Shown here: positions 2,568-62,760 of the stretch, piece by piece
Layout: each line of letters begins with the position of its first letter
How positions within the stretch are numbered: the first letter of the stretch is position 1
Assembly: GCA_905236645.1 (NCBI GenBank)
Contig: CAJOMZ010000013.1
Span: 3,315-67,314 of the forward strand
DNA from: an uncultured Bacteroidales bacterium
Lineage (GTDB): Bacteria > Bacteroidota > Bacteroidia > Bacteroidales > P3
Direction of reading: 5' to 3'
Length of the DNA: 64,000 nucleotides
Made by a program: the position numbers and the translations under genes
The notes under the pieces: model-generated
The model's database searches: none
Told to the model about the DNA's origin: nothing
The model's input: the letters and a program-made list of their open reading frames with translations, nothing else

Positions 2568-2685
2568 GTAGTTAAAGGGTTAAAAAGGTTGGAAAGGTTC
2601 GCTCCCTACGGTCGTTGAAAGGCTGATAAGAACCAACCCACTTTAAACCTTTATAACCTTAAAACCTTTTAAACTTTAAAAAATA
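2568..2685. repeat. Imperfect inverted array of AAGGTT / AACCTT words in the mmdC-mmdB spacer
   Basis: The left half is gttaaagggttaaaaaggttggaaaggtt. The right half is aaccaacccactttaaacctttataaccttaaaaccttttaaac, approximately its reverse complement. Confidence 0.6.
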
Positions 2686-2690
2686 CAACA

Positions 2691-3860
2691 ATGAACATAT
2701 TAGCTTCAGGTGGCTTTATGGACTTTATGTCGACGCAGCTGGTGCAGTTCCTGCATTACACCGGTTTCGCCAACGTAGAGTGGGGCCACATTATAATGAT
2801 TTTTATAGGCTTGATATTCATCTTTTTGGGTATCAAGAAGGAGTTTGAGCCTCTGCTCCTCGTTCCTATCGGATTCGGTATGATTGTCGGTAACATTCCT
2901 TTCTATCCTGGATTGAAGATAGGTATCTATGAGGATGGCTCGGTGCTGCATATCCTGTACCACGGTGTGCAGAACGGCTGGTACCCGCCGCTGATATTCC
3001 TCGGCATCGGTGCAATGACCGATTTCTCGGCAATGCTCAGCAATCCTAAGCTGATGCTTATCGGCGCTGCCGCCCAGGTCGGTATCTTCGCTGCCTATAT
3101 GGGTGCCCTGGCTCTGGGCTTTGCTCCCAACGAGGCTGGCGCTATCGGCATCATCGGCGGTGCCGACGGCCCGACGGCTATCTTCCTGTCGTCGCAGCTG
3201 GCTCCCGACCTGATGGGTGCAATCGCAGTGTCGGCATACTCTTATATGGCTTTGGTGCCTGTGATTCAGCCTCCTATTATGCGTCTGCTCACCACCAAGA
3301 AAGAACGTACCATCCGTATGCGTCCGCCGCGTCAGGTGACGAAGCTCGAGAAGATCTCGTTCCCCATCCTGGGCCTCATCTTCTGTGCTTTCATCGTCCC
3401 CTCGGGTCTGCCGCTGCTGGGTATGCTGTTCTTCGGCAACCTGCTGAAAGAGTGCGGCGTTACCAAGCGCTTGTCGGAGGTGGCCTCCAACGCCATCGTC
3501 AATATCTGCACGCTGCTTATCGGCATCACTGTGGGTGCCTCGACCCAGGCAACGACCTTCCTTACAGGTCGTTCGGTGCTGATTTTCGCCCTTGGTGCCG
3601 GTTCGTTTATCGTTGCCACGTTCTTTGGCGTTCTTTTCGTCAAGTTTATGAACCTCTTCCTGAAAGAAGGCAACAAGATCAACCCGCTTATTGGTAACTC
3701 CGGTGTGTCGGCAGTGCCCGACGCCGCACGTGTTTCTAACAACGTCGGACTTGAGTACGACAAGACCAACTATCTGCTCCAGCACGCTATGGGTCCCAAT
3801 GTGGCCGGCGTGGTGGGTTCGGCAGTGGCCGCAGGTATCCTGCTGGCATTCCTGCACTAA
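2691..3860 (+). CDS. mmdB: Na+-translocating decarboxylase beta subunit (OadB/MmdB family)
   Basis: A polytopic membrane protein of 389 aa with OadB-like segments (GIGAMTDF, IIGGADGPTAIF, NPLIGNSGVSAVP). It is the last gene of the mmd cluster. Confidence 0.9.
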   Translation: MNILASGGFMDFMSTQLVQFLHYTGFANVEWGHIIMIFIGLIFIFLGIKKEFEPLLLVPIGFGMIVGNIPFYPGLKIGIYEDGSVLHILYHGVQNGWYPPLIFLGIGAMTDFSAMLSNPKLMLIGAAAQVGIFAAYMGALALGFAPNEAGAIGIIGGADGPTAIFLSSQLAPDLMGAIAVSAYSYMALVPVIQPPIMRLLTTKKERTIRMRPPRQVTKLEKISFPILGLIFCAFIVPSGLPLLGMLFFGNLLKECGVTKRLSEVASNAIVNICTLLIGITVGASTQATTFLTGRSVLIFALGAGSFIVATFFGVLFVKFMNLFLKEGNKINPLIGNSGVSAVPDAARVSNNVGLEYDKTNYLLQHAMGPNVAGVVGSAVAAGILLAFLH

Positions 3861-3890
3861 TAAATGCCGATTCCGGAATTTAATACCAAA

Positions 3891-3917
3891 GTCCCGACCT
3901 CGGTCGGGACTTTGTTG
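3891..3917 (+). terminator. Rho-independent terminator of the mmd operon
   Basis: The stem is gtcccgac-ctcg-gtcgggac, followed by tttgttgt, 30 nt after the mmdB stop. Confidence 0.7.
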
Positions 3918-4190
3918 TATAAGGCCATTGGAAAAATATTTTGCCGTATCGGGAAAAGTTGTAATAATATTTGTGATGCAGTATCGGTTGCGACGGATTT
4001 GTAATCCGTCGCAATTATTTATAAGTATTTGCAATCTGTAAGGTCGGCACTTGGTTATTTTTGCGGATTGCAAATCCGAGACAACAGACACCCTTTTTGT
4101 TTAAACGTCTGAAAACCAATAAAATGATAAAATATTAGCGTCGTATCATAACTGCTTGTTCTTTAGGTCTTTACAGGGTCATCTTCGTTC

Positions 4191-4278
4191 GTTGTCCAGT
4201 TGTTGTCCAGTTGTTGTCCAGTTGTTGTCCAGTCATTGACTGGACAACAACTGGACAACAACTGGACAACGACTGGAC
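4191..4278. repeat. Long near-perfect palindrome made of 11-nt tandem units (GTTGTCCAGTT x4, then inverted x4)
   Basis: Hand pairing around centre T4236 shows 4194-4235 complementary to 4237-4278, with 41 Watson-Crick pairs and 1 G-T. Confidence 0.9.
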
Positions 4279-4491
4279 GGTGTTGGTACGGTGGAATTAG
4301 CTGGATGGTATTTGTGGGTTGGCGTGATGGTGTTTGGGAATTGGCGGGGTTGTGTTTGGGAATTAGCTGGGTGGTGTTTGGGGATCGGTGAGGAGGGGCG
4401 ACGGGCGTGCGGCACCATTTTCTGTGAACAGTGTGGTTGAAAAAAGAGCGGTGTTTGTGGCGATAAGTTGTGTTATTTAATTTTTATTTCG

Positions 4492-4499
4492 TATTTTTG
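4492..4499 (+). promoter_or_regulatory. Bacteroidetes-type -7 promoter box upstream of valS
   Basis: TATTTTTG matches the TAnnTTTG consensus, 90 nt upstream of the valS ATG. Confidence 0.5.
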
Positions 4500-4588
4500 C
4501 AGTTTGAACCGATGGACCCTTTGGGGTTTCTGTTGGTGTATTGAATTGAATAGTAATTGATTGAGTAGAATAATAATATTTATATATA

Positions 4589-7291
4589 ATGGAAATTGCA
4601 TCGAAATACAATCCTCGTGCCGTTGAAGAGAAGTGGTACGAATTTTGGTTGGAGAAAAAGTTGTTTCATTCCGAGCCCGACCGCCGTCGCCCTTACACGG
4701 TGGTTATTCCGCCGCCCAATGTGACGGGCGTGCTGCATATGGGCCATATGCTGAACAATACGATACAGGATGTGTTGGTGCGCCGCGCGCGAATGATGGG
4801 CAAGAATGCCTGCTGGGTTCCGGGAACGGACCACGCCAGCATCTCGACCGAGGCAAAGGTGGTGAAGATGCTTGCCGAGCGCGGTATCAACAAGCGCGAC
4901 CTGAGCCGCGACGAGTATATGAAGTATGCCTGGGAGTGGAAGGAGAAGTATGGCGGCATCATCCTGAAGCAGTTGCGCAAGCTTGGCGCCAGCTGCGACT
5001 GGGACCGCACGGCCTTTACGATGGACGACATCCGCTATGAGAGTGTGATTCAGGTGTTTGTCGATCTCTACAACAAGGGCTTGATTTATCGCGGCGCCCG
5101 TATGGTGAACTGGGACCCGCAGGCGCTGACGGCGGTGAGCGACGAGGAGGTGATATACAAGGAGAGCCACGGCAAGCTGTTCTATTTGAAGTACTTCGTT
5201 GAGAACGCAGAACGGGGGACGGAGAACGGAGAGCTGGGCAAGGACTATATCGTCGTGGCCACCACGCGCCCCGAGACCATTATGGGCGACACGGCGGTGT
5301 GCGTGCATCCCGAGGACGAGCGCTACCAGTGGCTGAAGGGCAAAAGGGTCGTTGTGCCCGGCGTAGGCCGCGTGGTGCCCATCATTATGGACGAGTATGT
5401 AGACCGCGAGTTCGGTACGGGTGCCCTCAAGATTACGCCTGCCCACGACATCAACGACTACAATCTGGGTATGAAATACAGCCTTGACAGCATCGATATC
5501 TTCAACGACAACGGCACTCTCAACGACAACGGCGGCAAGTATGCCGGTATGGACCGCTTTGCCTGCCGCAAGGCCATTATGAAGGACCTTGAGGAGGCTG
5601 GCCTTGTCGAGAAGATTGAGGACTATGTGAACAAGGTGGGCCACTCGGAGCGTACCGACGCCGTGATTGAGCCCAAGCTCAGCACGCAGTGGTTTGTGAA
5701 GATGAGCGACATCGCCAAGAAAGCGCTCGAGGTCGTTGAGGACGGCAAGATCAAGTTCCATCCCGACAAGTTCAGAAACACCTACCGCCACTGGCTTGAG
5801 AACATCAAGGACTGGTGCATCAGCCGTCAGCTGTGGTGGGGCCACCGCATTCCGGCGTGGTATTTTGAACGGATAACGGAAAGCGGAGAACGGAGAACGG
5901 AGGTGGTTGTGGCACTCAACGAGGAGGAGGCCCGCAAGCTGGCCGCCGAGAAGTACGGCTACACCGGCGAACTGCGTCAGGACGAGGATGTGCTCGACAC
6001 CTGGTTCAGCAGCTGGCTGTGGCCTATCAGCCTCTTCGACGGCATCCGCAACCCCGACAACGAGGAGATAAAGTATTACTATCCCACCGACGACTTGATT
6101 ACGGCTCCCGACATCATCTTCTTCTGGGTGGCTCGTATGATTATGGCCGGCGAGGAATACAGAGGCGAGGTGCCTTTCAAGAACGTCTACTTCACCGGTA
6201 TAGTGCGCGACAAGCTGGGCCGCAAGATGAGCAAGAGCCTCGGCAATTCGCCCGACCCCATCGAGCTGATAGAGAAATACGGCGCCGACGGCGTGCGTAT
6301 GGGTATGCTGCTGACGGCTCCCGCAGGCAACGACCTGCCGTTTGACGAGAGCATCTGCGAGCAGGGCCGCAATTTCGCCAACAAGATTTGGAACGCCCTG
6401 CGCCTGGTGAAAGGCTGGACGGTGGAAACGGAGAACGGAGAACGGAGACCCGAGAACGAGGTGGCAGTGGAATGGATGGAGCAGAGGATGGCCTGCGTGC
6501 TGGAGCAGATAGAGAAAGACTTTGACCAGTACCGCCTGAGCGAGGCACTGATGAATACCTACAAACTGGTGTGGGACGACTTCTGCTCGTGGTATCTGGA
6601 GATGGTGAAGCCCGCCTACGGCACGCCTATCGACAAGGAGACCTACGACGCGACCATCAGCATCTTCGAGCGTCTGATGTGTATGCTGCATCCGTTTATG
6701 CCTTTTGTCACCGAGGAAATATGGCACCTGCTGCAGGATGCCGACAGCGAGGCCAAGGCAGAGATGATTGCCCAGAGCAGCATTATGATGCAGCGTATGC
6801 CGGCAAGCGTGTTCTACGACCAGCGTATGCTCGACGACTGCACGACGGCCCGCGACGTCATTGCCGGAGTGCGCAACCTGCGCAACAGCCGGGGCCTGTC
6901 GCCCAAAGAGGCGTTGGAGCTCTTCGTGGTGTGCGGCGACGGCAAGCGTATGAACAGCCGCTTTGACGGTATTGTCAAGAAACTGGCCAACGTGAGCGAC
7001 ATCAAGTATGTCGACACCAAGGTTGAGGGTGCCGTGAGCTTTATGATCGGCACGACAGAGTTCTTTGTGCCTATGAGCCAGAATGTCGACGTGGAGGCCG
7101 AGAAGAAGAAACTGGAGGAGGAACTGCGGTATGCCGAGGGTTTCCTGGCCAGCGTGATGAAGAAGCTTGGCAACGAGAAGTTTGTCAACGGTGCGCCCGA
7201 GAAAGTGGTCGCCGTCGAGCGTCAGAAGAAAGCCGACGCCGAGCAGAAGATAGCGGCGCTGAAGGCACAGATTGAGAATCTGAAGGCTTAA
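4589..7291 (+). CDS. valS: Valine--tRNA ligase
   Basis: It has the class I HIGH-type motif [18 protein letters not shown], the [10 protein letters not shown] editing-domain signature and a C-terminal coiled coil. Length is 900 aa. Confidence 0.97.
5203..5234 (+). repeat. Heptamer array 1 inside valS (gaacgca gaacggg ggacgga gaacgga ...)
   Basis: Tandem imperfect GAACGGA units that encode [11 protein letters not shown]. Confidence 0.7.
5867..5901 (+). repeat. Heptamer array 2 inside valS (gaacgga taacgga aagcgga gaacgga gaacgga)
   Basis: Five contiguous 7-nt units (35 nt) that encode [12 protein letters not shown]. Confidence 0.8.
6425..6460 (+). repeat. Heptamer array 3 inside valS (gaaacgga gaacgga gaacgga gacccga gaacgag)
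   Basis: Five units (36 nt) that encode [12 protein letters not shown]. Confidence 0.8.
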
Positions 7292-7324
7292 ACGAGTCAA
7301 TGTTTGAATAATAAAAGTCTTGAT

Positions 7325-8806
7325 ATGAAAAAGAGAAGTGTTTTTCTGACAATTGTATGCCTGACGGTGATGTCGGTCGCCGACGTGAAGGCGCAAGAGG
7401 CCTCGCTCGACACGCTGTTGAGCCACATCAGGGAGCTGTCGTCGTCGAAGTATGAGGGCCGCTTGGCCGGCACAGAGTCCTATATGGACGCAGCCGACTA
7501 TGTCATATCCGCCCTTGAGCGCTATGGCGTTAAGCCTTACAAGGGCGAATGGGCGCAGTACTTTGAGACAGAGTGCAACGAGATAGAGAACTGCACGTTC
7601 AACAGCTATCTTGGCAACAACAAGGATGCCAGCCAGGTGTATGTGCTGGGCCGTGACTTCTGCTGCTCGGGAATGACCGGCAGAGGCTATGCCGACGCAC
7701 CGGTGGTGTTTTGTGGATATGGTATCGACAACGGGGCTTTCGACGAGTATGCCAATGTCGACGCCAAGGGCAAGGTCGTTATGGTGCTGAGCGGTGTGCC
7801 TGGTTTTCTGCCCTCAAGCGTGACAAGCAAATACCAGCAGCTGAGGGACAAGGCACGGGTTGCAAGAAAGCACGGCGCCTGTGCCTTGGTGGTTGTCAAT
7901 ATGGCTGCGAACTGCTCGCCCTACGAGGTGCAGGGTGCTGTCTATTCGGGCGAACTGCCGCATCTGGCGACATTCCCTGTGATACAGCCCACACGCGATT
8001 GCGGCGACAGGCTGTTGCAGAACGAGGCGATGACGCTCGAAGAGGCTGTGCAGAAGATCAACGAGACGCACAACCCTCAGTCGTTTCATTTGAAGAAGAA
8101 ATTTGAGATTGAGGTCAATGCCAAATATCATCCGGCAGCGCTGACAGCCAATGTGATAGGCATCTATCCCGGCTCGGACCTCAAGATGAACAACGAGTAT
8201 GTCGTTGTGGGGGCCAATCTGGACCACGTGGGTATGCAAGGCACTACCTGCCTGTTCCCCGGTGCCGACGACAATGCGTCGGGGGTCGCTGCCCTGCTCG
8301 AGACGGCCCGAATGCTGCAATACTCTGACGACCAGCCGTCGAGGAGCATTATATTTGTGCTCTTCTCGGCAGGCGAGCAGCAACGCTTGGGCTCGCAGAT
8401 CTTTGTGTCGAACTTTACGCCGCTGAAGCGCATCGAGGCTTTCGTCAATGTCGCTTCGGTTGGCTGTGGCGACAGTATCGCTGTGATGGGCAACAAGAGG
8501 TATCCGCAACTGTGGAGCGTTGCCAAGCGTGTCGACACGGTGTATTGCACAAACGACGTTGCAGTTGGAATGAAGACTTTGCCCAAGGGCGACGCTGTGG
8601 CGTTTGACCACGTGGACATTCCGTCGATAACCATCACCAACTTCAAGGGTTCCCGCTACAATCACGTGCCGAGTGACATAGTGGAGAATATCGACCGCCG
8701 CTTCATTGTCAAGGCCACGCAGCTCTTGTTCGAGACGGTGCTCGACCTGTCGTTCGGTGAATACCAGGGCCGCTCCAATGCCTCGAAGCGTATCAAGTTT
8801 GAGTGA
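7325..8806 (+). CDS. M28-family metallopeptidase with PA domain (secreted)
   Basis: The ATG at 7325 gives a signal peptide (MKKRSVFLTIVCLTVMSVADVKAQ). M28 motifs are NLDHVG and GADDNASGVAALLE. Confidence 0.8.
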   Translation: MKKRSVFLTIVCLTVMSVADVKAQEASLDTLLSHIRELSSSKYEGRLAGTESYMDAADYVISALERYGVKPYKGEWAQYFETECNEIENCTFNSYLGNNKDASQVYVLGRDFCCSGMTGRGYADAPVVFCGYGIDNGAFDEYANVDAKGKVVMVLSGVPGFLPSSVTSKYQQLRDKARVARKHGACALVVVNMAANCSPYEVQGAVYSGELPHLATFPVIQPTRDCGDRLLQNEAMTLEEAVQKINETHNPQSFHLKKKFEIEVNAKYHPAALTANVIGIYPGSDLKMNNEYVVVGANLDHVGMQGTTCLFPGADDNASGVAALLETARMLQYSDDQPSRSIIFVLFSAGEQQRLGSQIFVSNFTPLKRIEAFVNVASVGCGDSIAVMGNKRYPQLWSVAKRVDTVYCTNDVAVGMKTLPKGDAVAFDHVDIPSITITNFKGSRYNHVPSDIVENIDRRFIVKATQLLFETVLDLSFGEYQGRSNASKRIKFE

Positions 8807-8834
8807 TGAGTAGGAAGGGTTTAAATAGATAGAG

Positions 8835-9584
8835 ATGTTTGCCTTATATAAGAAAGAGTTGTCGTCGTTCTTCTCGTCGTTGATGGGATATCTGACGATA
8901 GTGGTGTTTTTGGTCTTCACGGGGCTGATGCTGTGGGTGTTCAAGTCGAGTTTCAACATTCTCGACTACAAGTATGCCGGTCTTGACGGCCTGTTTCTGT
9001 TAGGACCGTTCCTGTACCTGTTCCTGATACCTGCGCTGACGATGCGTATGCTTGCCGAAGAGAAGCGCAACGGCACGCTGGAACTGCTGTTGACCAAGCC
9101 TTTGTCGGAGTTCACCGTGGTTATGGCCAAGTTCCTGGCTGGTTTTACGCTGGTGGTTATATCGCTGTTGCCGACGCTGGTCTATTATTGGAGCGTTTAC
9201 CGACTGGGCGACCCGATGGGCAATATCGACACCGGCAGCGTTGTGGGCTCGTATATCGGACTGCTTTTCCTCGGCGGTGCATTTGTGTCGATAGGTCTGT
9301 TTGCATCGTCGCTGACAAGCAATCAGATAGTGGCGTTTATCATAGCCGCGCTTCTGTGCGCATTCTGCTATCTGGGCTTCGAGTCGCTGTATCAGCTGAT
9401 GAGCGGCAAGGTGGCGCTGGCGTTGCGCGGATTCGGCTTGCAGGCACACTATGAGTCTATTTCGCGTGGCGTGATAGATACACGCGATGTGGTGTATTTC
9501 CTGTCTATTATTACGCTGTTCATAATGCTTACGCGGCTTGTCCTGCAGTCGCGCAAATGGACGGGAAGAGTTAAGAAGAATTAA
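8835..9584 (+). CDS. gldF: ABC-2 type transporter permease, GldF-like
   Basis: A six-TM permease with N-terminus MFALYKKELSSFFSSLMGY. A GldG-like gene follows directly. Confidence 0.7.
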   Translation: MFALYKKELSSFFSSLMGYLTIVVFLVFTGLMLWVFKSSFNILDYKYAGLDGLFLLGPFLYLFLIPALTMRMLAEEKRNGTLELLLTKPLSEFTVVMAKFLAGFTLVVISLLPTLVYYWSVYRLGDPMGNIDTGSVVGSYIGLLFLGGAFVSIGLFASSLTSNQIVAFIIAALLCAFCYLGFESLYQLMSGKVALALRGFGLQAHYESISRGVIDTRDVVYFLSIITLFIMLTRLVLQSRKWTGRVKKN

Positions 9585-9596
9585 AGATTAAAGAGA

Positions 9597-11333
9597 ATGA
9601 GAAATATTCGCCGTCAAAATATTCTGGGAATAATAGCTGTGGTGCTGGTGCTGGTCTTTGCCAACGTCATCAGCAGCTACTTGTTCAGGCGATTTGATTT
9701 GACATCGGAGAAGCGCTATACGCTGTCGGAGTCTACCAAGGAGGTTTTGAAGGAACTGGATGAGCAGGTCCTGTTCCGCGTGTACCTTGAGGGCGACGAC
9801 TTGCCGGCCGAATACCGTCGTTTCCGCAACGATATCAAAAATATGCTCGACCAGTTCAGGGCATATAGCAGCAATGTTGAGTATGAGTTCATCAACCCCA
9901 ACGCCTTCAAGACGGAAGAGGAGAAGATGCAGCTGTATCAGACACTTGTCAAGAAAGGACTGGTGCCGATACCAATAACGACAGAGGAGGAAGGTGTGCA
10001 GAAGCAGCAGGTGGTCTATCCTGCAATGGAGGTGACCTACAAAGGCAGGGAAACGGCATTGCAGCTGCAGTCGGCAGGCTTGAGCAGCCGTTCTACCGAG
10101 GAGGTGATAAACACTTCTGTAGAGAACCTTGAGTACAATTTTGTCACAGCAATTCACCGCCTTACGCGTCCTGTCCAGGCTCGGGTGGGGTTCCTCACCG
10201 GGCACAGCGAGTTGGATAAGATTGATATATATGACATCCAGATGTCGCTCGTGGACGACTACAAGGTGGAAAATGTGTTTCTGAATCAAAATATCAATGC
10301 CTTGACCGGCCGCATACAGAATGTCACCGACTCAAGTGTGACGGTAAACAACAAGTATGACGTGCTTGTCATACCCAAGCCGTTGGAGACATTTAGCGAC
10401 AAGGACTTGTATGTCATAGACCAGTTTGTAATGTATGGTGGCAAGATTCTGTGGCTTGTCGACGCACTTGATGCCGATTTGGACAGCCTGCAAGGGAAAG
10501 ATCAGACCTTTGCCACACGTCTCCCGACCAATCTCGAGGAGATGTTCTTCAACTACGGCGTGCGCATCAATCCCGACCTGATTATGGATTACCGCTGCCG
10601 CGGCATACCGATGATGGGCAACGACAACCGTATGCAGCTGGTTCCGTGGTATTATTTCCCGACACTGGTTCCTAATTCAGACCATCCCATTGTCCGTAAC
10701 CTTGACGTGCTGAGGACTGATTTCATCAGCAGCATCGACCTTATCGACAACAATATAAATAAGACCGTTCTGCTTACCACATCCGATCACGTCCATATCA
10801 AGAACGCTCCTGTCAATATCCAGCTTGCCGATGCGCGTATTCCTGTCAACGAACAGCTGTTCAACCGTAGCAACCTTCCGGTGGCTGTGCTGCTTGAGGG
10901 TTCTTTCCAGTCTCTGTTCAGGAACCGGCTGGCAACGGCATTTATGGAGCTGTCGGAGATAGGCTACAAGCCGATGTGTGACAAACCCACACAGATGATT
11001 GTCGTTTCGGACGGTGACATTATCCGTAACAGTGTCCAGAGTAGCGAGCAAGGCTTGTATCCCTTGCCGCTTGGGTATGATAAGTATACTGATGTGATGT
11101 TTGCCAACAAGACGTTTATCCTCAACGCTATCAACTTCCTGGCTGGCGACGAGGCTATGATCGACGCCCGTCCCAGAAATATTGCAATACGACGTCTTGA
11201 TGTTGCAAAGGTCAAGTCGCAGCGTGGCTACTACCAGTTTGCCAACATTGTCTATCCTGTTGTGCTGGTGCTGCTGCTTGCCGCCGTGGTGTTGTGCGTC
11301 AGGGCACTGAGATACAGAAGAAAACAGATGTAA
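9597..11333 (+). CDS. gldG: GldG-like ABC-transporter auxiliary component
   Basis: 578 aa with N- and C-terminal TM anchors and a large periplasmic domain. It shows the classic gldF-gldG-DUF4340 gene order. Confidence 0.7.
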   Translation: MRNIRRQNILGIIAVVLVLVFANVISSYLFRRFDLTSEKRYTLSESTKEVLKELDEQVLFRVYLEGDDLPAEYRRFRNDIKNMLDQFRAYSSNVEYEFINPNAFKTEEEKMQLYQTLVKKGLVPIPITTEEEGVQKQQVVYPAMEVTYKGRETALQLQSAGLSSRSTEEVINTSVENLEYNFVTAIHRLTRPVQARVGFLTGHSELDKIDIYDIQMSLVDDYKVENVFLNQNINALTGRIQNVTDSSVTVNNKYDVLVIPKPLETFSDKDLYVIDQFVMYGGKILWLVDALDADLDSLQGKDQTFATRLPTNLEEMFFNYGVRINPDLIMDYRCRGIPMMGNDNRMQLVPWYYFPTLVPNSDHPIVRNLDVLRTDFISSIDLIDNNINKTVLLTTSDHVHIKNAPVNIQLADARIPVNEQLFNRSNLPVAVLLEGSFQSLFRNRLATAFMELSEIGYKPMCDKPTQMIVVSDGDIIRNSVQSSEQGLYPLPLGYDKYTDVMFANKTFILNAINFLAGDEAMIDARPRNIAIRRLDVAKVKSQRGYYQFANIVYPVVLVLLLAAVVLCVRALRYRRKQM

Positions 11334-11352
11334 TATCCTTTTTAATACTACA

Positions 11353-12438
11353 ATGAAAACTAAGAAAAACCTCATAATAGCATTGTCGATTGTCCTGCTG
11401 GGCGTTGTCACTCTTGTCGTTGTGCTGTCGCGCAGCCGCAACCATACCTTCAAGCAGGATTTTCAGATAGAGGCCGCCGGCTACCCCGGTGCTGTCAGCA
11501 AAATATTTATGGCCGACAAAGAGAACCATCAGGTTCTGTTGTCCAGTGAGAACGATTCGCTCTGGCTCGTTGACGGGAAATACCCTGCCAGCGAACCGAT
11601 GATAGAGCTGTTGCTGCAGACGCTTTCGGATATGCGAATCCGCAGCCAGGTCAGCAGTGCCGCGGCAGAGAACGTTACCAAGCAACTCGCCGCCAAGAGT
11701 GTCAAGGTGGAAGTGTATTATAAGGATTACCGCATCAATTGGTTCAATGGCAAGTTGCGCCTGTTCCTGTATACCAACCGCAGTGTAATCTATGTGGGAC
11801 ACGACACGCAGGACAATATGGCCACCTATATGTACCGCGAAGGCGACAAGTATCCATACGTCATCAATATCCCAGGTTTCAGAGGCTGCCTCTCGCCGCG
11901 TTTCGTTGTCGACCATTATGCTTGGCGTAGCCATTCCATTGTCAGCCTGCCTGTTCAGCAGATTGCCAAAGTGGAGTTGCAGATTCCCTCCAAGCCAGAG
12001 GAGTCGTTCTCTGTCGAAAGGGCAGGGGATGGCTTTGTGTTCAATATGCTTAACCCGCCCCAGCGCGTTGAGGGTTTCGACACAGCTCGTGTAGCACAGC
12101 TGCTGTCGTCGTTTGTCAATCTTAACTTTGACGAGTTTGCAAAGGCGGTGCCTAAGATTGAACTCGACACTACATTCTCCGGCGCCCCGAGGACCATTCT
12201 CACGGTGACAGACGTAAACGGCAACGCCCGCACGCTGAAGACCTACATAAAATACACCAATCCCGACGACCTGCGTTCTATGCCCGACACCTCAATGTAC
12301 GAGGTTTTTGACATAAACCGTCTCTATGCAATTCTGGACAACAAGGACACAGTGCTGATCCAATACTACATTTTTGACAATATCCTCCAGCCTGCATCAT
12401 TCTTCTTGGGCCTCGAACACTCCTACTTTGCCAGATAA
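11353..12438 (+). CDS. DUF4340-like protein
   Basis: It has an N-terminal TM anchor and sits directly after gldG, as is typical in Bacteroidota. Confidence 0.55.
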   Translation: MKTKKNLIIALSIVLLGVVTLVVVLSRSRNHTFKQDFQIEAAGYPGAVSKIFMADKENHQVLLSSENDSLWLVDGKYPASEPMIELLLQTLSDMRIRSQVSSAAAENVTKQLAAKSVKVEVYYKDYRINWFNGKLRLFLYTNRSVIYVGHDTQDNMATYMYREGDKYPYVINIPGFRGCLSPRFVVDHYAWRSHSIVSLPVQQIAKVELQIPSKPEESFSVERAGDGFVFNMLNPPQRVEGFDTARVAQLLSSFVNLNFDEFAKAVPKIELDTTFSGAPRTILTVTDVNGNARTLKTYIKYTNPDDLRSMPDTSMYEVFDINRLYAILDNKDTVLIQYYIFDNILQPASFFLGLEHSYFAR

Positions 12439-12446
12439 TACAAGCT

Positions 12447-13208
12447 ATGAGACCACTATTCCTTATAACCAACGACGACGGATACGGTGCAAAGGGCATA
12501 CAAACCCTGATACGCGTAGCCCGCGAATTGGGCGACATCGTCGTTGTGGCTCCTGAACGCAACGCCTCAGCGCTGTCGCATTCGCTTACAAGCAGTCGCC
12601 CTTTGCGTGTACACACAATCTCGGAGATAGAGGACTGCAAGGTGTATCTGTGCGACGGCACACCGGTCGACTGTGTGAAGCTGGGCGCCGAAAACTTCTG
12701 TCCCCGCCGTCCCGACCTTGTGCTCTCGGGCATCAACCACGGCAGCAACTCGTCAATCAATGTGCTTTATTCAGCCACTATGGGTGCCGCGTTGGAGGCA
12801 GCCGTAAGCGGCTTGCCGGCAATCGGTTTCTCTCTGCTTGATTTCTCGCCCGATGCCGATTTCGAGCCGTCGGTGCCTTTTGTCAGGGATATTATAAAAA
12901 AATCCCTTGAAAAAGAGCTGCCGGGCAAATATGCGCTCAATGTAAACATTCCGGTGCCGACAGACGGCAAAATAAAAGGAGTCAGAGTCTGCCGCCAGTC
13001 GCAGGCCAGATGGGTCGAAAGCTATGAGAGACGTGTCGACCCGCACGGACGTCCATACTACTGGCTCACAGGAAATTTCGAGTGCGACGATATTGCAGAA
13101 GACACCGACCAGTGGGCATTGCAGAACGGCTACGTTTCCATAGTGCCTACAACCACCGACTTTACGGCTATGAACTTGATTGAAAAGATAAAAAAGGATT
13201 ATGAGTGA
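12447..13208 (+). CDS. surE: 5'/3'-nucleotidase SurE
   Basis: N-terminal ITNDDGYGAKGI and the GINHGSN motif. Confidence 0.92.
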   Translation: MRPLFLITNDDGYGAKGIQTLIRVARELGDIVVVAPERNASALSHSLTSSRPLRVHTISEIEDCKVYLCDGTPVDCVKLGAENFCPRRPDLVLSGINHGSNSSINVLYSATMGAALEAAVSGLPAIGFSLLDFSPDADFEPSVPFVRDIIKKSLEKELPGKYALNVNIPVPTDGKIKGVRVCRQSQARWVESYERRVDPHGRPYYWLTGNFECDDIAEDTDQWALQNGYVSIVPTTTDFTAMNLIEKIKKDYE

Positions 13209-13491
13209 TTTGCTGAAACAAAACAGAGTGTTGGCAGGCTTGTTGCTGTCGCTTGGCTCCGAATTGGTTACAGGCGCCCTGCTTTGGCTCGGACTTTTCA
13301 TAGCTCACCAACCGGTCGAAAGCCACATCAGATGGTTTGGAATATGCTTCGTGCCGCCGCTGCTCATACTGCACCGTTTCGCTAAAAAGAAACAGGACAC
13401 GCAGATAGTCAAGACGTTGATTATTGCGCTGTTCGTTACGTTTATAATCTTTCTGTATATTTTGTTCAAGACTAAAGCTATCGCGCTGTGA
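13201..13491 (+). CDS. Small membrane protein (3 predicted TM segments)
   Basis: A hydrophobic 96-aa ORF whose ends overlap the surE stop and the lpxB start. Confidence 0.5.
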   Translation: MSDLLKQNRVLAGLLLSLGSELVTGALLWLGLFIAHQPVESHIRWFGICFVPPLLILHRFAKKKQDTQIVKTLIIALFVTFIIFLYILFKTKAIAL

Positions 13492-16736: not shown

Positions 16737-16878
16737 ATGCCCACTCCTGCCCGAAACGCATAACACAGGGAATGGGCAGCTGTCGGTATACTCCATCCTC
16801 TCATTTGGCGACCAAAAAAGTTGGTCTGTCACTCTGCATCCGATGCACTAAATTCCACCCGACTTTTTGCTAAATTCT

Positions 16879-16952
16879 TACCAAAGTTTACTGGAGTGAA
16901 CTTTGGTAGAACTTTGGTAAAACTTTGAGTAAACTTTGGTAGGAATTTGGTA
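16879..16952. repeat. 11-nt phased array: one inverted copy (taccaaagtt), then five direct copies of (g/a)aactttggta
   Basis: The units lie at 16898, 16909, 16920, 16931 and 16942, exactly 11 nt apart. The inverted copy is at 16879-16888. Confidence 0.85.
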
Positions 16953-17138
16953 TATGGAAATCAGGGAGTTGTAAAAGGGCAAAATCGGCCCTTTTACGAG
17001 TTCTTGCAACTTTTTTGACAAGCCTCGTAATAAGTTGGTTTTAAGTATGATAGGTGTAAAAAAGCCCTGTTTTCGGTGGATTTTGCAATTTCACCGATTT
17101 TTGCCTGGTTTCAGGGACTTTGAAAATGTGGATTCGGG

Positions 17139-24902: not shown

Positions 24903-25104
24903 CTAAAAAAACTTCGTTTTTGCCCCTTTTCGGCTGCCAATTTTTATCAACATTTTGTGGAAAAATAATATTCCGGGTCTATTGTGTTGAACTACAGATG
25001 CTTGGTGCGCTTTGCGCAGGCTCTGTCGCCCCCTGTTTGCACCCCGGAAACGGCGTTGCGGAAGCCCCGTTTCCTAACCGCTTCATCCTCAGTCCTTCAA
25101 GGGA

Positions 25105-25214
25105 CCAACTCCGTCCGTTGTACAATATATGTACAATAGTTGTACAATACTTGTACAATTGGTAAACGTACAAATATTGTACAAGTATTGTACATATATT
25201 GCGGACGGAGTTGG
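25105..25214. repeat. 110-nt hairpin element: 13-bp GC clamp enclosing 4 + 3 inverted 11-nt TTGTACAATAN units
   Basis: The clamp is ccaactccgtccg (25105-25117) against cggacggagttgg (25202-25214). Units lie at 25118, 25129, 25140 and 25151, with inverted units at 25169, 25180 and 25191. Confidence 0.85.
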
Positions 25215-25302
25215 TAGGGCGAAATCGTGGCGAAAAAACGGTCCGTCGACGGTCGGTGGACAATATTTTCGGTGCAAGGGACGTTATATTGAAAATTTTT
25301 TG

Positions 25303-38978: not shown

Positions 38979-38990
38979 TTTCTTACATTT

Positions 38991-39030
38991 TACGCAATGG
39001 ACTGCGTATTTTTACGCAATGCGCTGCGTA
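38991..39030. promoter_or_regulatory. Two tandem 18-bp palindromes TACGCA-N6-TGCGTA, 22 bp apart, just upstream of the ATPase gene
   Basis: The palindromes lie at 38991-39008 and 39013-39030, inside a 22-nt direct repeat ttttacgcaatgNNctgcgta. The nearer one is 13 nt from the start codon. Confidence 0.4.
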
Positions 39031-40173: not shown

Positions 40174-40323
40174 ATTGTATAAAGGTTATGGTTTAAAAAA
40201 ACAATACTTTCTTGTTGTTGATTGGTTGACAATAGGTTGCGGTGGTATGTGCTTTGAAAAATTATCTTAAAGGGGTCTTTCTTATACTTCTCCAAGCTTA
40301 ACAAACCAAACCCGAGTCATCAT

Positions 40324-40405
40324 TTCAACGATACTTCAACGATACTTCGACCATATTTCAACGATTATATATCGTTGAAATATAGTCGAAGTATCGTTGC
40401 AATGT
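40324..40405. repeat. Hairpin element built from 11-nt TTCAACGATAC units (4 direct, about 3 inverted)
   Basis: Units lie at 40324, 40335, 40346 and 40357. 40337-40365 pairs with 40371-40399 with one mismatch around the loop tatat. Confidence 0.85.
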
Positions 40406-40454
40406 GGTTGATGTATATTTGAAGGGGCCAGGTTGGTATATTCCTTCAGTATGT

Positions 40455-57482: not shown

Positions 57483-57487
57483 ATTCG

Positions 57488-58568: not shown

Positions 58569-59336
58569 TCAGTATCCGACTATCTTGTAAATAACCCCGC
58601 CAACCCATTCGTTTATAAGCTCTTTCCAGTCGGTAAGTGGCTTCCATTGTGGCAGGAACTGATAGGCTTTGGGGTGGGGCTTAGGGTAAATGTTTGTGGC
58701 ATAGCCGTCCACCTGCCAGCCCTCGGCATCGAAACAGGCGAGACTGCGTTTCAGGTGTGTGGCCGAGGTGATGACAATGCATTGCTCGGGCGTGTAGCCC
58801 AGCGAATCGAGAACGGCGATGCTGTAAGTGGCATTCTCGCGGGTGTTGCGGGCATATTGCTCAAAAATAAGATCGTCGCTATGCAGGCCAAAATCACTAA
58901 GGTATGTCTTGAAGTATTGGTCGGTGCTGCGGCCGTCGTGCGATTTGGATATCGTCGCATCGCCCGAAATCATTATTTTTTCGGCAACGCCGCTTTCATA
59001 CAGCCTGATGGCCTCCCACAGCCGCGTACCACGGTCGTCAATAAATACAGGCTGCATTGTGGCGGTGTCAAAACCGTCGCTGAAACCGCCCATAACGATG
59101 GCTACATTGTAGTATTGCTTTGGCAGCTTTTGGTGGCTGTAATGCCGTGTGGTCATATACTGCGACCACTGCAGCAGCGGCTTGTTGGTGAAGAGCAGCA
59201 ACACCGACAAGGCGGCAATGAAAAAGCCTCGCCGCCACTTTTTGTTCTGCACCAGATAGGCAAGAACGAAAAGCAGCACCACCCAGGTAAGTGGCTGTAA
59301 AAAGACTTTCAGTATTTTGGAAATGTAAAAGAACAT
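58569..59336 (-). CDS. YdcF/DUF218 family protein
   Basis: It has an N-terminal TM segment. AIVMGG and IMISGD are typical of DUF218. Confidence 0.65.
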   Translation of the reverse strand: MFFYISKILKVFLQPLTWVVLLFVLAYLVQNKKWRRGFFIAALSVLLLFTNKPLLQWSQYMTTRHYSHQKLPKQYYNVAIVMGGFSDGFDTATMQPVFIDDRGTRLWEAIRLYESGVAEKIMISGDATISKSHDGRSTDQYFKTYLSDFGLHSDDLIFEQYARNTRENATYSIAVLDSLGYTPEQCIVITSATHLKRSLACFDAEGWQVDGYATNIYPKPHPKAYQFLPQWKPLTDWKELINEWVGGVIYKIVGY

Positions 59337-59340
59337 CCTG

Positions 59341-60264: not shown

Positions 60265-60283
60265 ATAAGGTTTGATGGTCAAA

Positions 60284-60330
60284 GGGGTTAAAGGTTTTAG
60301 GGTTAAAAGGGTTTAGGGTTTAAGGGATGG
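60284..60330 (+). repeat. G-tract word repeat (GGGGTTAAAGG TTTTAGGG TTAAAAGGG TTTAGGG TTTAAGGG)
   Basis: Read directly from an 84-nt intergenic spacer. It has four GGG runs with loops of 6, 4 and 5 nt. Confidence 0.7.
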
Positions 60331-60366
60331 TTTTCGTCTTAGTTAGAGTATAGGTTAAAGAGGTGA

Positions 60367-61305
60367 TCAGGACAGTCTTTTTAAGAGTTTCATCCTCAGG
60401 GCGTAGGGTATAAATGCTAATATACTGTAAAGATATAACTTCTTGTTGCGGTGCCAGTGCTGAGACTTGTGTATCTCGCTTCTGCACTTGCGGCCTTGGT
60501 GTGGCAGGCGTAGATAGATCGACGCCCGCATTTTGTACCATTTGGCTATGTATTGGTCAAGGTATGGCAGTGGTTTGTCGTTGTAGATTCTTTCCAGCTC
60601 GCGGCCCACCATATCGTCGTCTGCAGGTGTGCGTTTTGGACGGTCCATAGCCGACTGCTCGCCAGTGTAGAATACACTTTGTGGCACAGGGCAATAGGCA
60701 ATCGTTCCCGTTGCCGCCAAGCGAGCCCACGTCAACAGGTCCTCGCCCTGATGTACACCCTCGGGAAATCCTCCGACGGCTTCAAGTGACGCTTTCCTCA
60801 CCATAACGCTTATGGAACAGAAAGGCGGCTCGGACAAAGCGGCGACTTCGAAATAGTTGTCCAGAAGCAGTGCCGGAATACCGTTGAATGTCTCCATTCT
60901 GCTTTGTGACAGCCGGTTGAGCTTGATATCCTGAATATTGCCTTTGCCGTCACAACGTTGATAGGCAGTGGCATAAACCGAGCAATCGGGATAGCGCTCT
61001 TTAAGTGCCAATACAGTCTCAAGGAACGTCGGTCTCCACTCGTCGTCAGCGTCAAGAAAAGCCACCCAGTCGGCAGAGGCTTCGTCAACGCCTCGGTTGC
61101 GGGCCATAGACACCCCCTTGTTGTCCTGCTCCACAAGCCGCAGCCGTTCGTCGTGTATCCGCTTTACTACCTCTTCTCCGCCGTCGGTAGAGCCGTTGTT
61201 GACAACAATCAGTTCGAAGTCTTGAACCGTCTGGTTCAGAACCGATTGCACGGCGCGCCCGACGGTGGCCGCCTTGTTGTAAAGAGGTATGACGACGGAA
61301 ACCAT
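60367..61305 (-). CDS. Glycosyltransferase family 2
   Basis: VSVVIPLYNKAATV, VVNNGSTDGG and FLDADDEW. Confidence 0.9.
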   Translation of the reverse strand: MVSVVIPLYNKAATVGRAVQSVLNQTVQDFELIVVNNGSTDGGEEVVKRIHDERLRLVEQDNKGVSMARNRGVDEASADWVAFLDADDEWRPTFLETVLALKERYPDCSVYATAYQRCDGKGNIQDIKLNRLSQSRMETFNGIPALLLDNYFEVAALSEPPFCSISVMVRKASLEAVGGFPEGVHQGEDLLTWARLAATGTIAYCPVPQSVFYTGEQSAMDRPKRTPADDDMVGRELERIYNDKPLPYLDQYIAKWYKMRASIYLRLPHQGRKCRSEIHKSQHWHRNKKLYLYSILAFIPYALRMKLLKRLS

Positions 61306-62657
61306 CAGAAATTAAATCCTCGTTCTGAATATTGATAATCAGGCTTCTGTACCTTATTGAGCATTCCAAGCATCATTCCGTACAGTGCAAACGGAAATCC
61401 TGTCGACGCCATTGTGTAGGTTACCACATTTTCGCTGTACATTGCTGCAAAACATCCAGCAATGCCTCCGGCGGCAATCATCGCGCAGCATTTTATATAA
61501 TCCGGAATATACGATCTGCTGCAGACAATAAAACAATGAATTACAACCACTATGCCTACAGCCATATACAGCCAGAAGCCAATCAAGCCCGTGTCGCACC
61601 GCATCTGCACAAAGTCGCCGTGGGTCTGCTTTACGCCGGCAGGATTGTCGTATAGGAACTTCTGGCAACTGCCAATACCGCTGCCTTTCAGCTCGTGACC
61701 TATGTAGAATTCTCTCTCCAACGTCTTCCAGATTGCCTCTCGTCCGTTGTTGCGAATCTCGTCTTCCGAGATGTTTCCTTCGCGAAGGTCCTGGATTGTC
61801 AGCTCGTTTTCAGTGTCTTTCCAGAACATTTTGTCGTGGAATGCGGGCACATAGAACACAATGGCCAGTCCTATACCAAGCACGCCGGCAATGTAAGGCA
61901 ATGATACCCATTTGTGTTTCAGGAACATAAACACGGCCAATCCGCTGAACATTCCCAAAAGTCCGCTGCGATGCACCATCAAGATGCAAGGCAAAACGAA
62001 CAATATTGCCAGGATTAGATCTTTCTTGTCCTTGCCGTAGTAATAGTAGAGTGCAAAGGATGTGATTGATATGGTTACATAGTTCAGATTCAACGCAGTG
62101 GCATACCAGAATGTTCCGCCAAAGAATCTGGCGATAAATGGGAAATAACCAATCAATGCGCTGATTATGGCCACCCGTCGGGCCCACACGCAGCAGGCAA
62201 GGAATATCTGCTCGTCGCGCACTATGGCAGAGGCTGTTATCATTATTATCATTGGGTACAGATACTTAAGTATGTATCTAAACCCATATTCGAATGAGCT
62301 GGCATAGGTCAGTGTGTAGACACACCACAGGATGTATATCAGATAAACCACCGTGCCGGGGCCCCATTGGGGCTTTTCGACGCACACAAACAGCGACATA
62401 AGCAGTGCCACCTCCAACAGCAACAGTCGTATGGCCTGCAGGTTTAATCCTCCGCCGGTGCCGTGGCCGCCTCCTGACGACGACAGGGCCAGCGTGCCGG
62501 TGGCAAAGAGCAGGATAAAGAACATCTCGGTGCCCTCGATGAGCAGATACTTGCTGCTGTTCAAGGGATCCTTGATGCGGGCGCTGTAACGGAACATAAA
62601 GACGAAGAAGTAGGCGTTCAGCACCAGGAATAGGATGAGGTTTATTATTCCGTTCAT
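61305..62657 (-). CDS. O-antigen ligase / polymerase family membrane protein (WaaL/Wzy-like)
   Basis: The start is taken at ATG 62657 (MNGIINLILF). It has 10 or more TM segments and a large loop with a HRSGLL...R motif region. Confidence 0.7.
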   Translation of the reverse strand: MNGIINLILFLVLNAYFFVFMFRYSARIKDPLNSSKYLLIEGTEMFFILLFATGTLALSSSGGGHGTGGGLNLQAIRLLLLEVALLMSLFVCVEKPQWGPGTVVYLIYILWCVYTLTYASSFEYGFRYILKYLYPMIIMITASAIVRDEQIFLACCVWARRVAIISALIGYFPFIARFFGGTFWYATALNLNYVTISITSFALYYYYGKDKKDLILAILFVLPCILMVHRSGLLGMFSGLAVFMFLKHKWVSLPYIAGVLGIGLAIVFYVPAFHDKMFWKDTENELTIQDLREGNISEDEIRNNGREAIWKTLEREFYIGHELKGSGIGSCQKFLYDNPAGVKQTHGDFVQMRCDTGLIGFWLYMAVGIVVVIHCFIVCSRSYIPDYIKCCAMIAAGGIAGCFAAMYSENVVTYTMASTGFPFALYGMMLGMLNKVQKPDYQYSERGFNF

Positions 62658-62726
62658 TTGTTTCCTTTTGCTGTTCTGACGTCGCTCTTCCGCCCTGTTT
62701 TCCAGCCATCGACACTGGTTCCGGTC

Positions 62727-62760
62727 CGTTCGTTGTCCAGTTGTTGTCCAGTTGTTGTTA
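62727..62760. repeat. Partial copy (about 2.5 units) of the GTTGTCCAGTT array, including its left flank
   Basis: 62727-62758 is identical to 4186-4217 (32 of 32 nt). It lies 70-100 nt upstream of the WaaL/Wzy-like start codon. Confidence 0.9.

What the first reader, a model, noticed from the sequence alone, without database searches (positions are those of the whole stretch)
2568..62760. Recurrent architecture: unrelated intergenic elements all built from about 11-nt words in inverted tandem arrays
Four loci use different words but the same plan: 3-5 head-to-tail copies of an 11-nt unit facing inverted copies.
- 4191-4278: GTTGTCCAGTT
- 16879-16952: AACTTTGGTAN
- 25105-25214: TTGTACAATAN
- 40324-40405: TTCAACGATAC

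Looser AAGGTT and GGGTTTA word arrays occur at 2568-2685 and 60284-60330.

The genomic contexts all differ: between co-directional genes, between convergent genes, between divergent genes, and inside an operon. A single trivial role such as termination therefore does not explain them.

Sharing a structure without sharing a sequence suggests a common generating mechanism or a structure-reading factor. I know of no described element class that matches this.
Basis: seen in the sequence. Interest (0 to 1): 0.65.

Follow-up and report, generated by a model that had tools for sequence, protein, structure and literature searches.

The report
Dispersed hairpin repeats built from 11-mers
The four "unrelated" hairpin arrays are copies of one abundant family of small palindromic repeats scattered through the genomes of an uncultured herbivore-gut Bacteroidales lineage; they share end sequences, but their inner 11-base words have diverged in step.

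Summary
**Observation: real.** Window 4189-4278, 25104-25215, 40321-40411 and 16872-16952 are long hairpins or arrays made of 11-nt tandem units. No comparable hairpin appeared in 30 shuffles, and fold z-scores are -6 to -14.

**Interpretation: only partly right.** The loci are not unrelated.
- **Multi-copy:** each is a copy of a dispersed repeat. Word depth is 600-14,000 against 14-40 for the flanks. I found 30 distinct genomic sites for the GTTGTCCAGTT form alone.
- **Shared ends:** the forms share terminal stems (ACCAACxCCGxxCG ... CGxxCGGxGTTGGTA) and short flanking extensions. Only the inner word differs.
- **Truncated copy:** a fifth, truncated copy lies at 62710-62759.
- **Unit number:** it is nearly fixed, at 4+4 in 26 of 30 sites.
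- **Related genomes:** in the same intergenic spacer some carry a different word variant, a flipped loop, a one-sided array or nothing.

**Best reading:** a lineage-specific superfamily of non-autonomous, foldback-type (MITE/REP-like) repeats. The shared plan comes from common descent plus concerted evolution of the units. The mobilising enzyme is unknown, and no target-site duplication was found.

**Separate features:** the looser arrays at 2568-2685 and 60284-60330 are G-poor leaders and spacers, not members.

I found no published description. This is a new variant of a known kind, of moderate interest.

The parts
4150..4291 (.). Family A element (unit GTTGTCCAGTT). Layout:
- one-sided extension, about 4150-4175
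- outer stem, 4176-4190
- left arm of 4 units, 4191-4234
- centre, 4235-4238
- right arm of 3.6 units, 4239-4278; the outermost unit has lost 7 nt
- end GGTGTTGGTACGG, 4279-4291
   Evidence: - Structure.
- Word depth 837-5,579 over 4164-4283 against 14-31 in the flanks, with many contigs carrying other flanks.
- 30 distinct sites elsewhere.
- The extension matches L089/L090.
16872..16971 (.). Family C element (unit AACTTTGGTAn). Layout:
- one inverted unit, 16872-16892
- five direct units, 16898-16952
- shared end TTTGGTATATGGAAATCAGGGAGTTG, 16946-16971
   Evidence: - Structure.
- Depth up to 5,371 against 19-20.
- Other copies carry inverted left arms, seen as loose ends.
- The 16831-17130 block is absent from relative L002.
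25067..25232 (.). Family B element (unit TTGTACAATAn). Layout:
- extension, 25067-25103
- outer stem ACCAACTCCGTCCG, 25104-25117
- left arm, 25118-25156
- 11-nt loop AATTGGTAAAC, 25157-25167
- right arm, 25168-25201
- outer stem, 25202-25215
- extension AGGGCGAAA..., 25216-25232
   Evidence: - Structure.
- Depth 1,000-14,269 against 14-15.
- 7 further copies with the same ends.
- Orthologous copies and variants.
40300..40446 (.). Locus-4 element (unit TTCAACGATAC) with degenerate ends: CCAAACCCGAGTC on the left and CCAGGTTGGTATAT on the right. The hairpin core is 40321-40411.
   Evidence: - Structure.
- About one further copy in the source run, with ends ACCCAACGCCGTC ... GATATGGCG.
- Depth up to 604 in a sheep-gut run.
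- The unit matches family B at 8 of 11 positions, read directly from the sequences.
62710..62759 (.). Truncated family A copy: a terminal stem-like sequence, then GTTGTCCAGTT x2.5, then an abrupt AT-rich junction. There is no right arm.

Best explanation
The four loci, plus a fifth truncated one, are members of one lineage-specific superfamily of short, non-coding, dispersed palindromic repeats. They are foldback-type, MITE/REP-like elements.

**Anatomy (shown).** A full element is about 112 nt of hairpin:
- a 13-14-bp outer stem with a conserved sequence;
- two arms of four 11-nt tandem units;
- a short loop;
- 20-45 nt of loosely conserved sequence outside the stem.

**Also shown**
- Multi-copy dispersal into many different intergenic sites.
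- Shared ends across forms with different words.
- A nearly fixed unit number.
- Turnover among relatives.

**How the shared plan arises (inferred)**
- The 11-nt plan is inherited from a common ancestor element.
- The words diverge because a change in one unit spreads along its arm by slippage or unequal exchange.
- It spreads to the other arm by recombination or template switching between the arms.
- The new form then spreads to other sites, either by an unknown trans-acting mobilising enzyme or by gene conversion through the conserved ends.

**Likely biological role (inferred).** The elements are mainly selfish or neutral passengers. They are tolerated in spacers, typically about 90-130 nt upstream of the -7 promoter box. 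Side effects could include cruciform formation, recombination and broken assemblies.
For: **Dispersal**
- Depth spikes of 20- to 900-fold are confined to the elements, and many contigs with unrelated flanks enter them.
- 55 metagenome hits for two A units gave 37 full copies at 30 distinct sites.
- 7 further B copies turned up in those loci.

**Shared ends**
- A and B carry identical outer stems.
- C and locus 4 carry the same end motif.

**Related words**
- B against locus 4: 8 of 11 positions.
- A against B: 7 of 11 positions.

**Fixed plan**
- 26 of 30 A sites are 4+4 units.

**Concerted change**
- The B' form in another genome has an A-to-G change in every unit of both arms, at two separate loci.
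- Spacer variants are often uniform within one arm.
- The spacers of the two arms match more often than in randomly paired copies: 53 of 78 against 41.2 +/- 2.9; 1 of 2,000 shuffles reached the observed 53 (highest 54).

**Arm recombination**
- The 11-nt loop of B is inverted between the window and its 97%-identical ortholog.

**Lineage specificity**
- Period-11 arrays: 11 in 268 kb of close relatives against 2 in 1.33 Mb of other Bacteroidales.
- Long hairpins: 5 against 4 in the same two sets.

**Presence and absence**
- The gyrB|DUF4835 spacer holds B, flipped B, B', a one-sided array, or nothing (165-240 nt) in relatives.
- The valS spacer differs likewise.
Against: - No target-site duplication or sharp insertion boundary could be defined.
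- No clean empty site was found in a near-identical strain.
- No autonomous partner or transposase was found. The end motif occurs almost only next to arrays.
- Mobility is therefore inferred from dispersal alone.
- The same spacers are occupied in different genomes by different forms. That could mean in-place replacement rather than transposition.
- The A-family census is biased: the regular expression required the GTTGT[CT]C core, and the metagenome loci were selected by the A word.
- No complete genome of the lineage was available, so copy number per genome is an estimate.
Confidence: 0.72

Rival explanations
1. Phased protein-binding arrays. The 11-bp units would be iterated sites for a DNA-binding protein, such as a transposase with subterminal sites, a nucleoid protein or a regulator. 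The sites would sit on one face of the helix, four per arm, just upstream of promoters.
For: - The period is about one helical turn, with a fixed 4+4 unit number.
- 22 of 76 distinct flanks have an outward TAnnTTTG box 80-140 nt from the array end.
- All 5 B copies with both neighbouring genes called (including the window's) lie between divergent genes.
- From my own knowledge, ParR/parC-type arrays use 11-bp iterons.
Against: - At least four different words coexist in one genome. Word-specific binding would need several proteins.
- Words turn over quickly at orthologous sites.
- Related genomes build analogous dispersed repeats from 8-nt units, which weakens the helical-phase argument.
- Promoter proximity may only reflect where insertions are tolerated.
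Confidence: 0.13
2. Functional RNA hairpins. Transcribed elements would act as terminators, insulators, mRNA stabilisers or RNase III sites.
For: - Predicted RNA hairpins are very stable: -83 and -68 kcal/mol, z about -13.
- Whole B elements occur in contigs of four RNA libraries.
- A second class of purine/pyrimidine-arm hairpins sits directly after stop codons in relatives.
Against: - There is no U-tract.
- Many copies lie between divergent promoters, where no transcript is expected.
- The RNA-library depth is only 2.5-4, and DNA carry-over is not excluded.
- Spacer mismatches between arms are tolerated in several copies.
- No Rfam family matches.
Confidence: 0.08
3. Independent local origin. 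Each locus would have arisen in place by slippage of an arbitrary 11-mer plus template switching.
For: - Unit variants are uniform within an arm, unit number occasionally changes, and one-sided arrays exist.
Against: - The same words with the same ends occur at dozens of unrelated sites.
- Forms with different words share terminal stems and extensions.
- The unit number is fixed at 4+4.
Confidence: 0.05
4. Assembly or library artefact, such as fold-back chimeras in a MEGAHIT contig.
For: The window comes from a short-read metagenome assembly.
Against: - The same elements occur inside long contigs of independent assemblies: JGI Ga0129306, NCBI JAEEG*, other ENA samples and Logan contigs.
- The arrays are shorter than the assembly k-mer.
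Confidence: 0.02

Closest known systems
BrickBuilt and MITEPgRS/MITE464 of Porphyromonas gingivalis (PMC4596501)
   Same: - Bacteroidales host.
- Strictly intergenic, dispersed, non-coding elements.
- The body is a run of short tandem repeats between conserved flanking parts.
- Variable among strains.
   Different: - BrickBuilt has 23-nt (MITEPgRS 41-nt) direct repeats in one orientation, with 1 to 23 copies.
[quoted passage not shown]
- It has IS5-type 12-nt terminal repeats (GAGACC...) matching resident ISPg elements, and about 19 copies per genome.
- Here the units are 11 nt, in two facing arrays of fixed number.
- The ends are different, and no IS partner is known.
REP/BIME elements mobilised by RAYT transposases; also the ERIC and Correia palindromic MITEs
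   Same: - High-copy intergenic imperfect palindromes.
- Able to form hairpins.
- Lineage-specific.
- Sometimes lack target-site duplications (REP).
   Different: - REPs are 20-40 nt with a GTAG or CGTC head (PMC3733652). Neither feature is present here.
- ERIC and Correia arms are unique sequence, not tandem units.
- Correia has a TA duplication and 26-bp terminal repeats (my own knowledge, and PMC10969869).
Foldback (FB) transposons of Drosophila and related eukaryotic foldback/MULE elements (my own knowledge)
   Same: - Long inverted arms that are themselves built from short tandem subrepeats of about 10-31 bp.
- The element folds back on itself.
- Copy-to-copy variation in subrepeats.
   Different: - Eukaryotic and kilobase-scale.
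- Variable arm length.
- Some copies carry coding sequence.
- No relation by sequence. This is an architectural analogy only.
Iteron or centromere arrays bound by ribbon-helix-helix proteins, such as the R1 parC 11-bp repeats (my own knowledge)
   Same: Contiguous 11-bp units in arrays flanking a central point.
   Different: - Those are single plasmid loci with one word and a cognate protein.
- Here there are many chromosomal copies, several words per genome, and facing (inverted) arrays.

Membership tests
MITE (miniature inverted-repeat transposable element) | Small, non-coding, many dispersed copies in different genomic contexts | tested here: met
   - About 112-180 nt, with no ORF.
- 30 distinct A sites and at least 8 B sites.
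- Depth spikes of 20- to 900-fold.
MITE (miniature inverted-repeat transposable element) | Conserved terminal inverted repeats | tested here: met
   ACCAAC(A/T)C(C/T)GxT(C/T)G ... CGxxCGG(A/T)GTTGGT is shared by A and B, and in degenerate form by C and locus 4.
MITE (miniature inverted-repeat transposable element) | Target-site duplication at the insertion boundaries | tested here: inconclusive
   - Flanks often read xGG on both sides (e.g. ACGGT/ACGGT in the L125 copy), but not consistently.
- No clean empty site was available.
MITE (miniature inverted-repeat transposable element) | Ends match an autonomous IS or transposase in the same genomes | not testable with these tools
   - The end motif was found almost only next to arrays in about 0.9 Mb of lineage DNA.
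- No whole genome of the lineage could be scanned.
REP/BIME (RAYT-associated) | 20-40-nt imperfect palindrome with a conserved GTAG or CGTC head | tested here: not met
   The hairpins are about 112 nt, and the ends read (G/T)ACCAAC. The family definition is from PMC3733652.
BrickBuilt-type MITE | 23-nt direct repeats between leader and tail, with IS5-type terminal repeats (GAGACCTTTGCA) | tested here: not met
   Units are 11 nt in facing arrays, and the ends are different.
Intrinsic terminator | Short G+C-rich hairpin followed by a T-tract, at 3' ends of genes | tested here: not met
   - No T-tract.
- The stems are 40-57 bp.
- Many copies lie between divergent genes.
- Ordinary terminators sit beside them, at 3890-3915 and 16970-16995.
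CRISPR array | Direct repeats separated by unique spacers | tested here: not met
   The units are contiguous, with no spacers.
Known structured RNA families (Rfam 15) | A match at the gathering score | tested here: not met
   0 matches in the window.

The most novel reading that the evidence does not exclude
The elements are not just passive repeats. They would form a genome-wide system of cruciform-forming, helically phased arrays placed about 100 nt upstream of promoters. An unidentified lineage-specific factor, either a structure-specific nuclease or transposase or a nucleoid protein, would read or move them. The inner word cassette would be exchanged between sites through the conserved ends. 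That would be a bacterial counterpart of eukaryotic foldback elements with a regulatory or topological role.
Probability: 0.15. Interest if true: 0.8.

Novelty: new variant of a known kind. Interest (0 to 1): 0.52.

Why it matters
- **Concerted evolution.** The work shows a compact bacterial example in which short dispersed repeats keep one architecture while their inner sequence changes in step, across eight units and across copies. It is a tractable model for molecular drive in small palindromes.
- **Practical effects.**
  - The elements break short-read assemblies. The closest relatives' contigs end inside them.
  - They mark sites of rearrangement: the valS spacer and a truncated copy at 62.7 kb.
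  - They could serve as strain markers for an abundant but uncultured rumen lineage.
- **Possible regulatory role.** If the promoter-proximal placement proves functional, the elements would bear on how Bacteroidales organise regulatory DNA.

Tried and rejected
- **Known RNA or tRNA features:** Rfam at the gathering threshold and the tRNA scan found nothing in the window.
- **Phage origin:** three viral-collection scans gave no elements. The single hit was two chance units with no ends.
- **Literature:** word and topic searches found only primers and unrelated repeats.
- **Target-site duplication:** flanks were inspected by eye and by alignment, and no consistent duplication emerged.
- **Transposase between paired copies:** the two A copies 2.8 kb apart in L135 flank a secreted protein and a lipoprotein, not a transposase.
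- **Larger element with the same ends:** the end motif occurs almost only next to arrays.
- **The one-sided extension as a separate repeat or promoter:** it occurs only next to elements and has no TAnnTTTG box.
- **Strand bias relative to replication:** a GC-skew test gave 12 against 3, but the data are not independent, so it is inconclusive.
- **RNA evidence:** only assembled contigs at depth 2.5-4, with no strand information.
- **"Invariant 7-nt core":** dropped, because my search pattern required that core.
- **Special role for 11 nt as one helical turn:** weakened, because related genomes carry analogous dispersed repeats with 8-nt units.


Full report
**Source and setting.** The window is part of an 81-kb ENA metagenome contig. 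It belongs to an uncultured Bacteroidales lineage.
- Its ValRS has relatives at 97% down to 75% identity, mostly labelled only 'Bacteroidales bacterium'. Several are MAGs from ruminants (RUG isolates, red deer), and the runs holding the window sequence are sheep, goat and bovine gut metagenomes.
- Genes around the loci were named with Pfam: a methylmalonyl-CoA/oxaloacetate decarboxylase operon, valS, gldF/G-like genes, surE, lpxB, gyrB, DUF4835 and a long low-GC glycan-synthesis cluster.

- Nothing similar appears in shuffled sequence: 4 hairpins scoring at least 16 against 0 in 30 shuffles.
- As single strands they fold far better than shuffles, with z from -6.3 to -13.9.
- TRF also finds the locus-1 word again at 62732-62758.
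- The two looser arrays do not share the plan. 2565-2690 is not significantly structured. The 60.3-kb array is a G-poor stretch with no predicted structure, lying immediately 5' of a minus-strand start codon.

**They are copies of dispersed repeats.**
- Logan contigs of the source run were laid on locus 1. Word depth was 837-5,579 over 4164-4283 against 14-31 beside it, and many contigs with unrelated flanks ran into the array.
- The same holds for:
  - locus 3, up to 14,269 against 14-15;
  - locus 2, up to 5,371 against 19-20;
  - locus 4 in other runs, up to 604, with about one extra copy in the source run.
- A metagenome scan for two A units returned 55 stretches.
  - About 45 are full hairpins in rumen-type assemblies.
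  - 37 have both flanks, representing 30 distinct sites.
- Those loci also contain seven family-B copies.

**One superfamily.**
- *Consensus A:* (G/T)ACCAACACCG(C/T)TC, then GTTGTCCAGTC-GTTGTCCAGTT-GTTGTCCAGTT-GTTGTCCAGTC, a central base, the mirror image, then GA(G/A)CGGTGTTGGTA.
- *Consensus B:* ACCAACTCCGGTCG, then TTGTACAATAT-ATGTACAATAC-TTGTACAATAT-TTGTAC, loop GTTTACCAATT, the mirror image, then CGACCGGAGTTGGTA.
- *Outer stems:* they are the same in A and B. The window's B copy and A copy L094 both read ACCAACTCCGTCCG.
- *Extensions outside the stem:*
  - On one side many copies continue with (T/G)GG(C/T)GAAAA....
  - On the other side many continue with a 40-45-nt extension, CTTGTAA..CTGGTAATGAAT..GTTTTT or variants. 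This extension is found only next to elements.
- *Locus 2:* it ends in TTTGGTATATGGAAATCAGGGAG, against GTTGGTATATGGAAAACAGCG in A copy L120. Other C copies have inverted left arms.
- *Locus 4:* together with its second copy it carries CCAAAC/CCCAACGCCGTC and GGTTGGTATAT/GATATGGCG.
- *Related words:* TTGTACAATAC against TTCAACGATAC is 8 of 11, and TTGTCCAGTTG against TTGTACAATAT is 7 of 11.
- The shared architecture is therefore inherited.

**Dynamics.**
- *Unit number:* 4+4 at 26 of 30 A sites.
- *Spacer variants:* the last four bases of the unit vary (AGTT, AGTC, GCTC, GATT, GTTT, GTTC). They are often uniform along one arm while differing from the other arm, for example in L094.
- *Arm matching:* even so, arms of the same element match better than randomly paired arms, 53 of 78 against 41.2 +/- 2.9.
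- *The gyrB|DUF4835 spacer in different genomes:*
  - The window has B.
  - Contigs with 97%-identical DUF4835 have B with the 11-nt loop inverted.
  - Another genome has B': ATGTACAGTAT in every unit of both arms, a different loop and TACCTTCTCCG ends.
  - Another has only a one-sided CAGAATTGACC x4 array.
  - Three more distant genomes have a short spacer of 165-240 nt with no element.
- *Other spacers:*
  - B' occurs again upstream of dnaA in its genome.
  - In the same position another genome has an A-like TTTTTGTCCGn hairpin.
  - Upstream of valS the window has A. A 97% relative has 7.8 kb of other genes plus an AGTAAGAGGGA array. A 93% relative has a C-like ACTTTGGTAA array.
- *What this fits:* these patterns fit units homogenised within arms, arms recombining with each other, and forms replacing one another at favoured spacers. 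The replacement could be by insertion or by conversion through the conserved ends. These last steps are inference.

**Position.**
- The elements are intergenic in every orientation class, and divergent spacers are well represented (with crude gene calls).
- Of 76 distinct flanks, 37 have an outward-facing Bacteroidetes -7 box (TAnnTTTG) within 300 nt. In 22 of them the box lies 80-140 nt from the array end.
- In the window, B lies 88 nt from the DUF4835 box and about 200 nt from the gyrB box.
- I could not build a proper null, so this is reported as an observation only.

**Lineage specificity.**
- Period-11 arrays: 11 in 268 kb of the window plus close valS loci, against 2 in 1.33 Mb of valS loci from other Bacteroidales.
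- Long hairpins: 5 against 4 in the same sets. All five in the lineage have period 10-11.
- Relatives at 75-82% ValRS identity carry further forms:
  - TTCTCATATnn;
  - a purine/pyrimidine-arm class, (GGAGTGAAAG)n-GGACAATA...TTTGTCC-(CTTTCACTCC)n, directly after stop codons.
- Some related genomes carry analogous dispersed repeats with 8-nt units. The 11-nt length is therefore a family trait, not a universal rule.
- Other Bacteroidales often have 21-23-nt tandem units with internal dyads.

**What it is not.**
- It is not a terminator: there is no T-tract, and copies sit between divergent genes.
- It is not CRISPR.
- It is not a known Rfam family.
- It is not phage-borne.
- It is not an artefact: independent assemblies agree.

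**Comparison with known classes.**
- *BrickBuilt/MITEPgRS of P. gingivalis:* the closest published relative in kind. These are intergenic MITEs with internal tandem repeats, but with 23- or 41-nt direct repeats, IS5-type ends and about 19 copies.
- *REP/BIME:* these share abundance and hairpins, but not size or the GTAG/CGTC head.
- *Eukaryotic Foldback elements:* the architecture, with inverted arms built of tandem subrepeats, is most like these. That comparison rests on my own knowledge and is an analogy only.
- *MITE membership:* the criteria of size, dispersal and terminal repeats are met. Target duplication is inconclusive, and an autonomous partner could not be sought.

**Limits.**
- No whole genome of the lineage was available.
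- The metagenome loci were selected by the A word, and my pattern required the GTTGT[CT]C core.
- RNA evidence is weak: whole B elements appear in four RNA-library contigs at depth 2.5-4.
- The mobilising mechanism is unknown.

**Verdict.** It is explained by a dispersed repeat superfamily, not by unrelated elements converging on one structure.

Noticed in passing
window 4293-4382: A 22-nt G/T-rich unit repeated four times lies directly to the right of the family-A element. G-rich or C-rich tracts also abut elements in relatives (L095, L100 12667-12790, L010 13584-13630).
   Followed up: no
window 3990-4080: The 730-nt OAD-beta|valS spacer has no ORF. It holds two palindromes, ACGGATTTGTAATCCGT and GCGGATTGCAAATCCG, plus a TAnnTTTG box at 4056 on the plus strand. 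The same GGATTGCAAATCC motif flanks an element in L100. This could be a small transcription unit or an operator.
   Followed up: no
window 60283-60366 (minus strand) and 2640-2690 (plus strand); L111/L118 8650-8736: G-poor AAACCCU/AAACCUU word arrays lie directly 5' of start codons. The 60.3-kb one folds to 0 kcal/mol. They look like unstructured translation leaders typical of Bacteroidetes, expanded by slippage.
   Followed up: partly
window 27700-62700, compared with L143 and L146: After the aminotransferase gene, relatives continue with a C10 peptidase and then dnaA. The window instead has a roughly 35-kb low-GC (37-47%) glycan-synthesis cluster. Its far side is close to the truncated family-A copy at 62710-62759.
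   Followed up: partly
L010 1682-1806; L079 6313-6394; L100 12568-12790; L120 9679-9900; L122 10631-10700: A second dispersed hairpin class has the form (GGAGTGAAAG)n - GGACAATA...TTTGTCC - (CTTTCACTCC)n. It starts at or just after stop codons and in L010 ends 28 nt before the next start codon. Window 2568-2685 loosely resembles it.
   Followed up: partly
L090 14174-14271; L109 598-850; L138 939-1058, 3659-3790, 8588-8725: The same lineage has another, unrelated dispersed palindromic repeat: CGACACACCCCGGCCTTCGGCCACCCCTCTCCGAGAGGGGATGG....
   Followed up: no
L150 3399-3436, 7823-7885, 16238-16275, 20279-20316; L152 10944-11077: Related genomes carry dispersed repeats built from 8-nt units (TGTTGATA, TCGAAACA) next to a G+C-rich palindrome. 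The unit TGTTGATA resembles the end motif GTGTTGGTA/GTGTTGATA of the 11-mer elements.
   Followed up: no
valS loci of other Bacteroidales (L021, L026, L031, L033, L045, L053, L064, L076 and others): Intergenic tandem repeats of 21-23 nt, each unit holding a small dyad, are common in Bacteroides, Phocaeicola and Segatella loci.
   Followed up: no
window 40411-40425 and 62766-62780: The same 12-mer, TGTATATTTGAA, contains a TAnnTTTG box. It follows both the locus-4 hairpin and the truncated A copy.
   Followed up: no
window 38988-39030: A 22-nt unit, TTTTACGCAATGCACTGCGTAT, is repeated twice just upstream of the AAA_14/DUF4143 ATPase gene.
   Followed up: no
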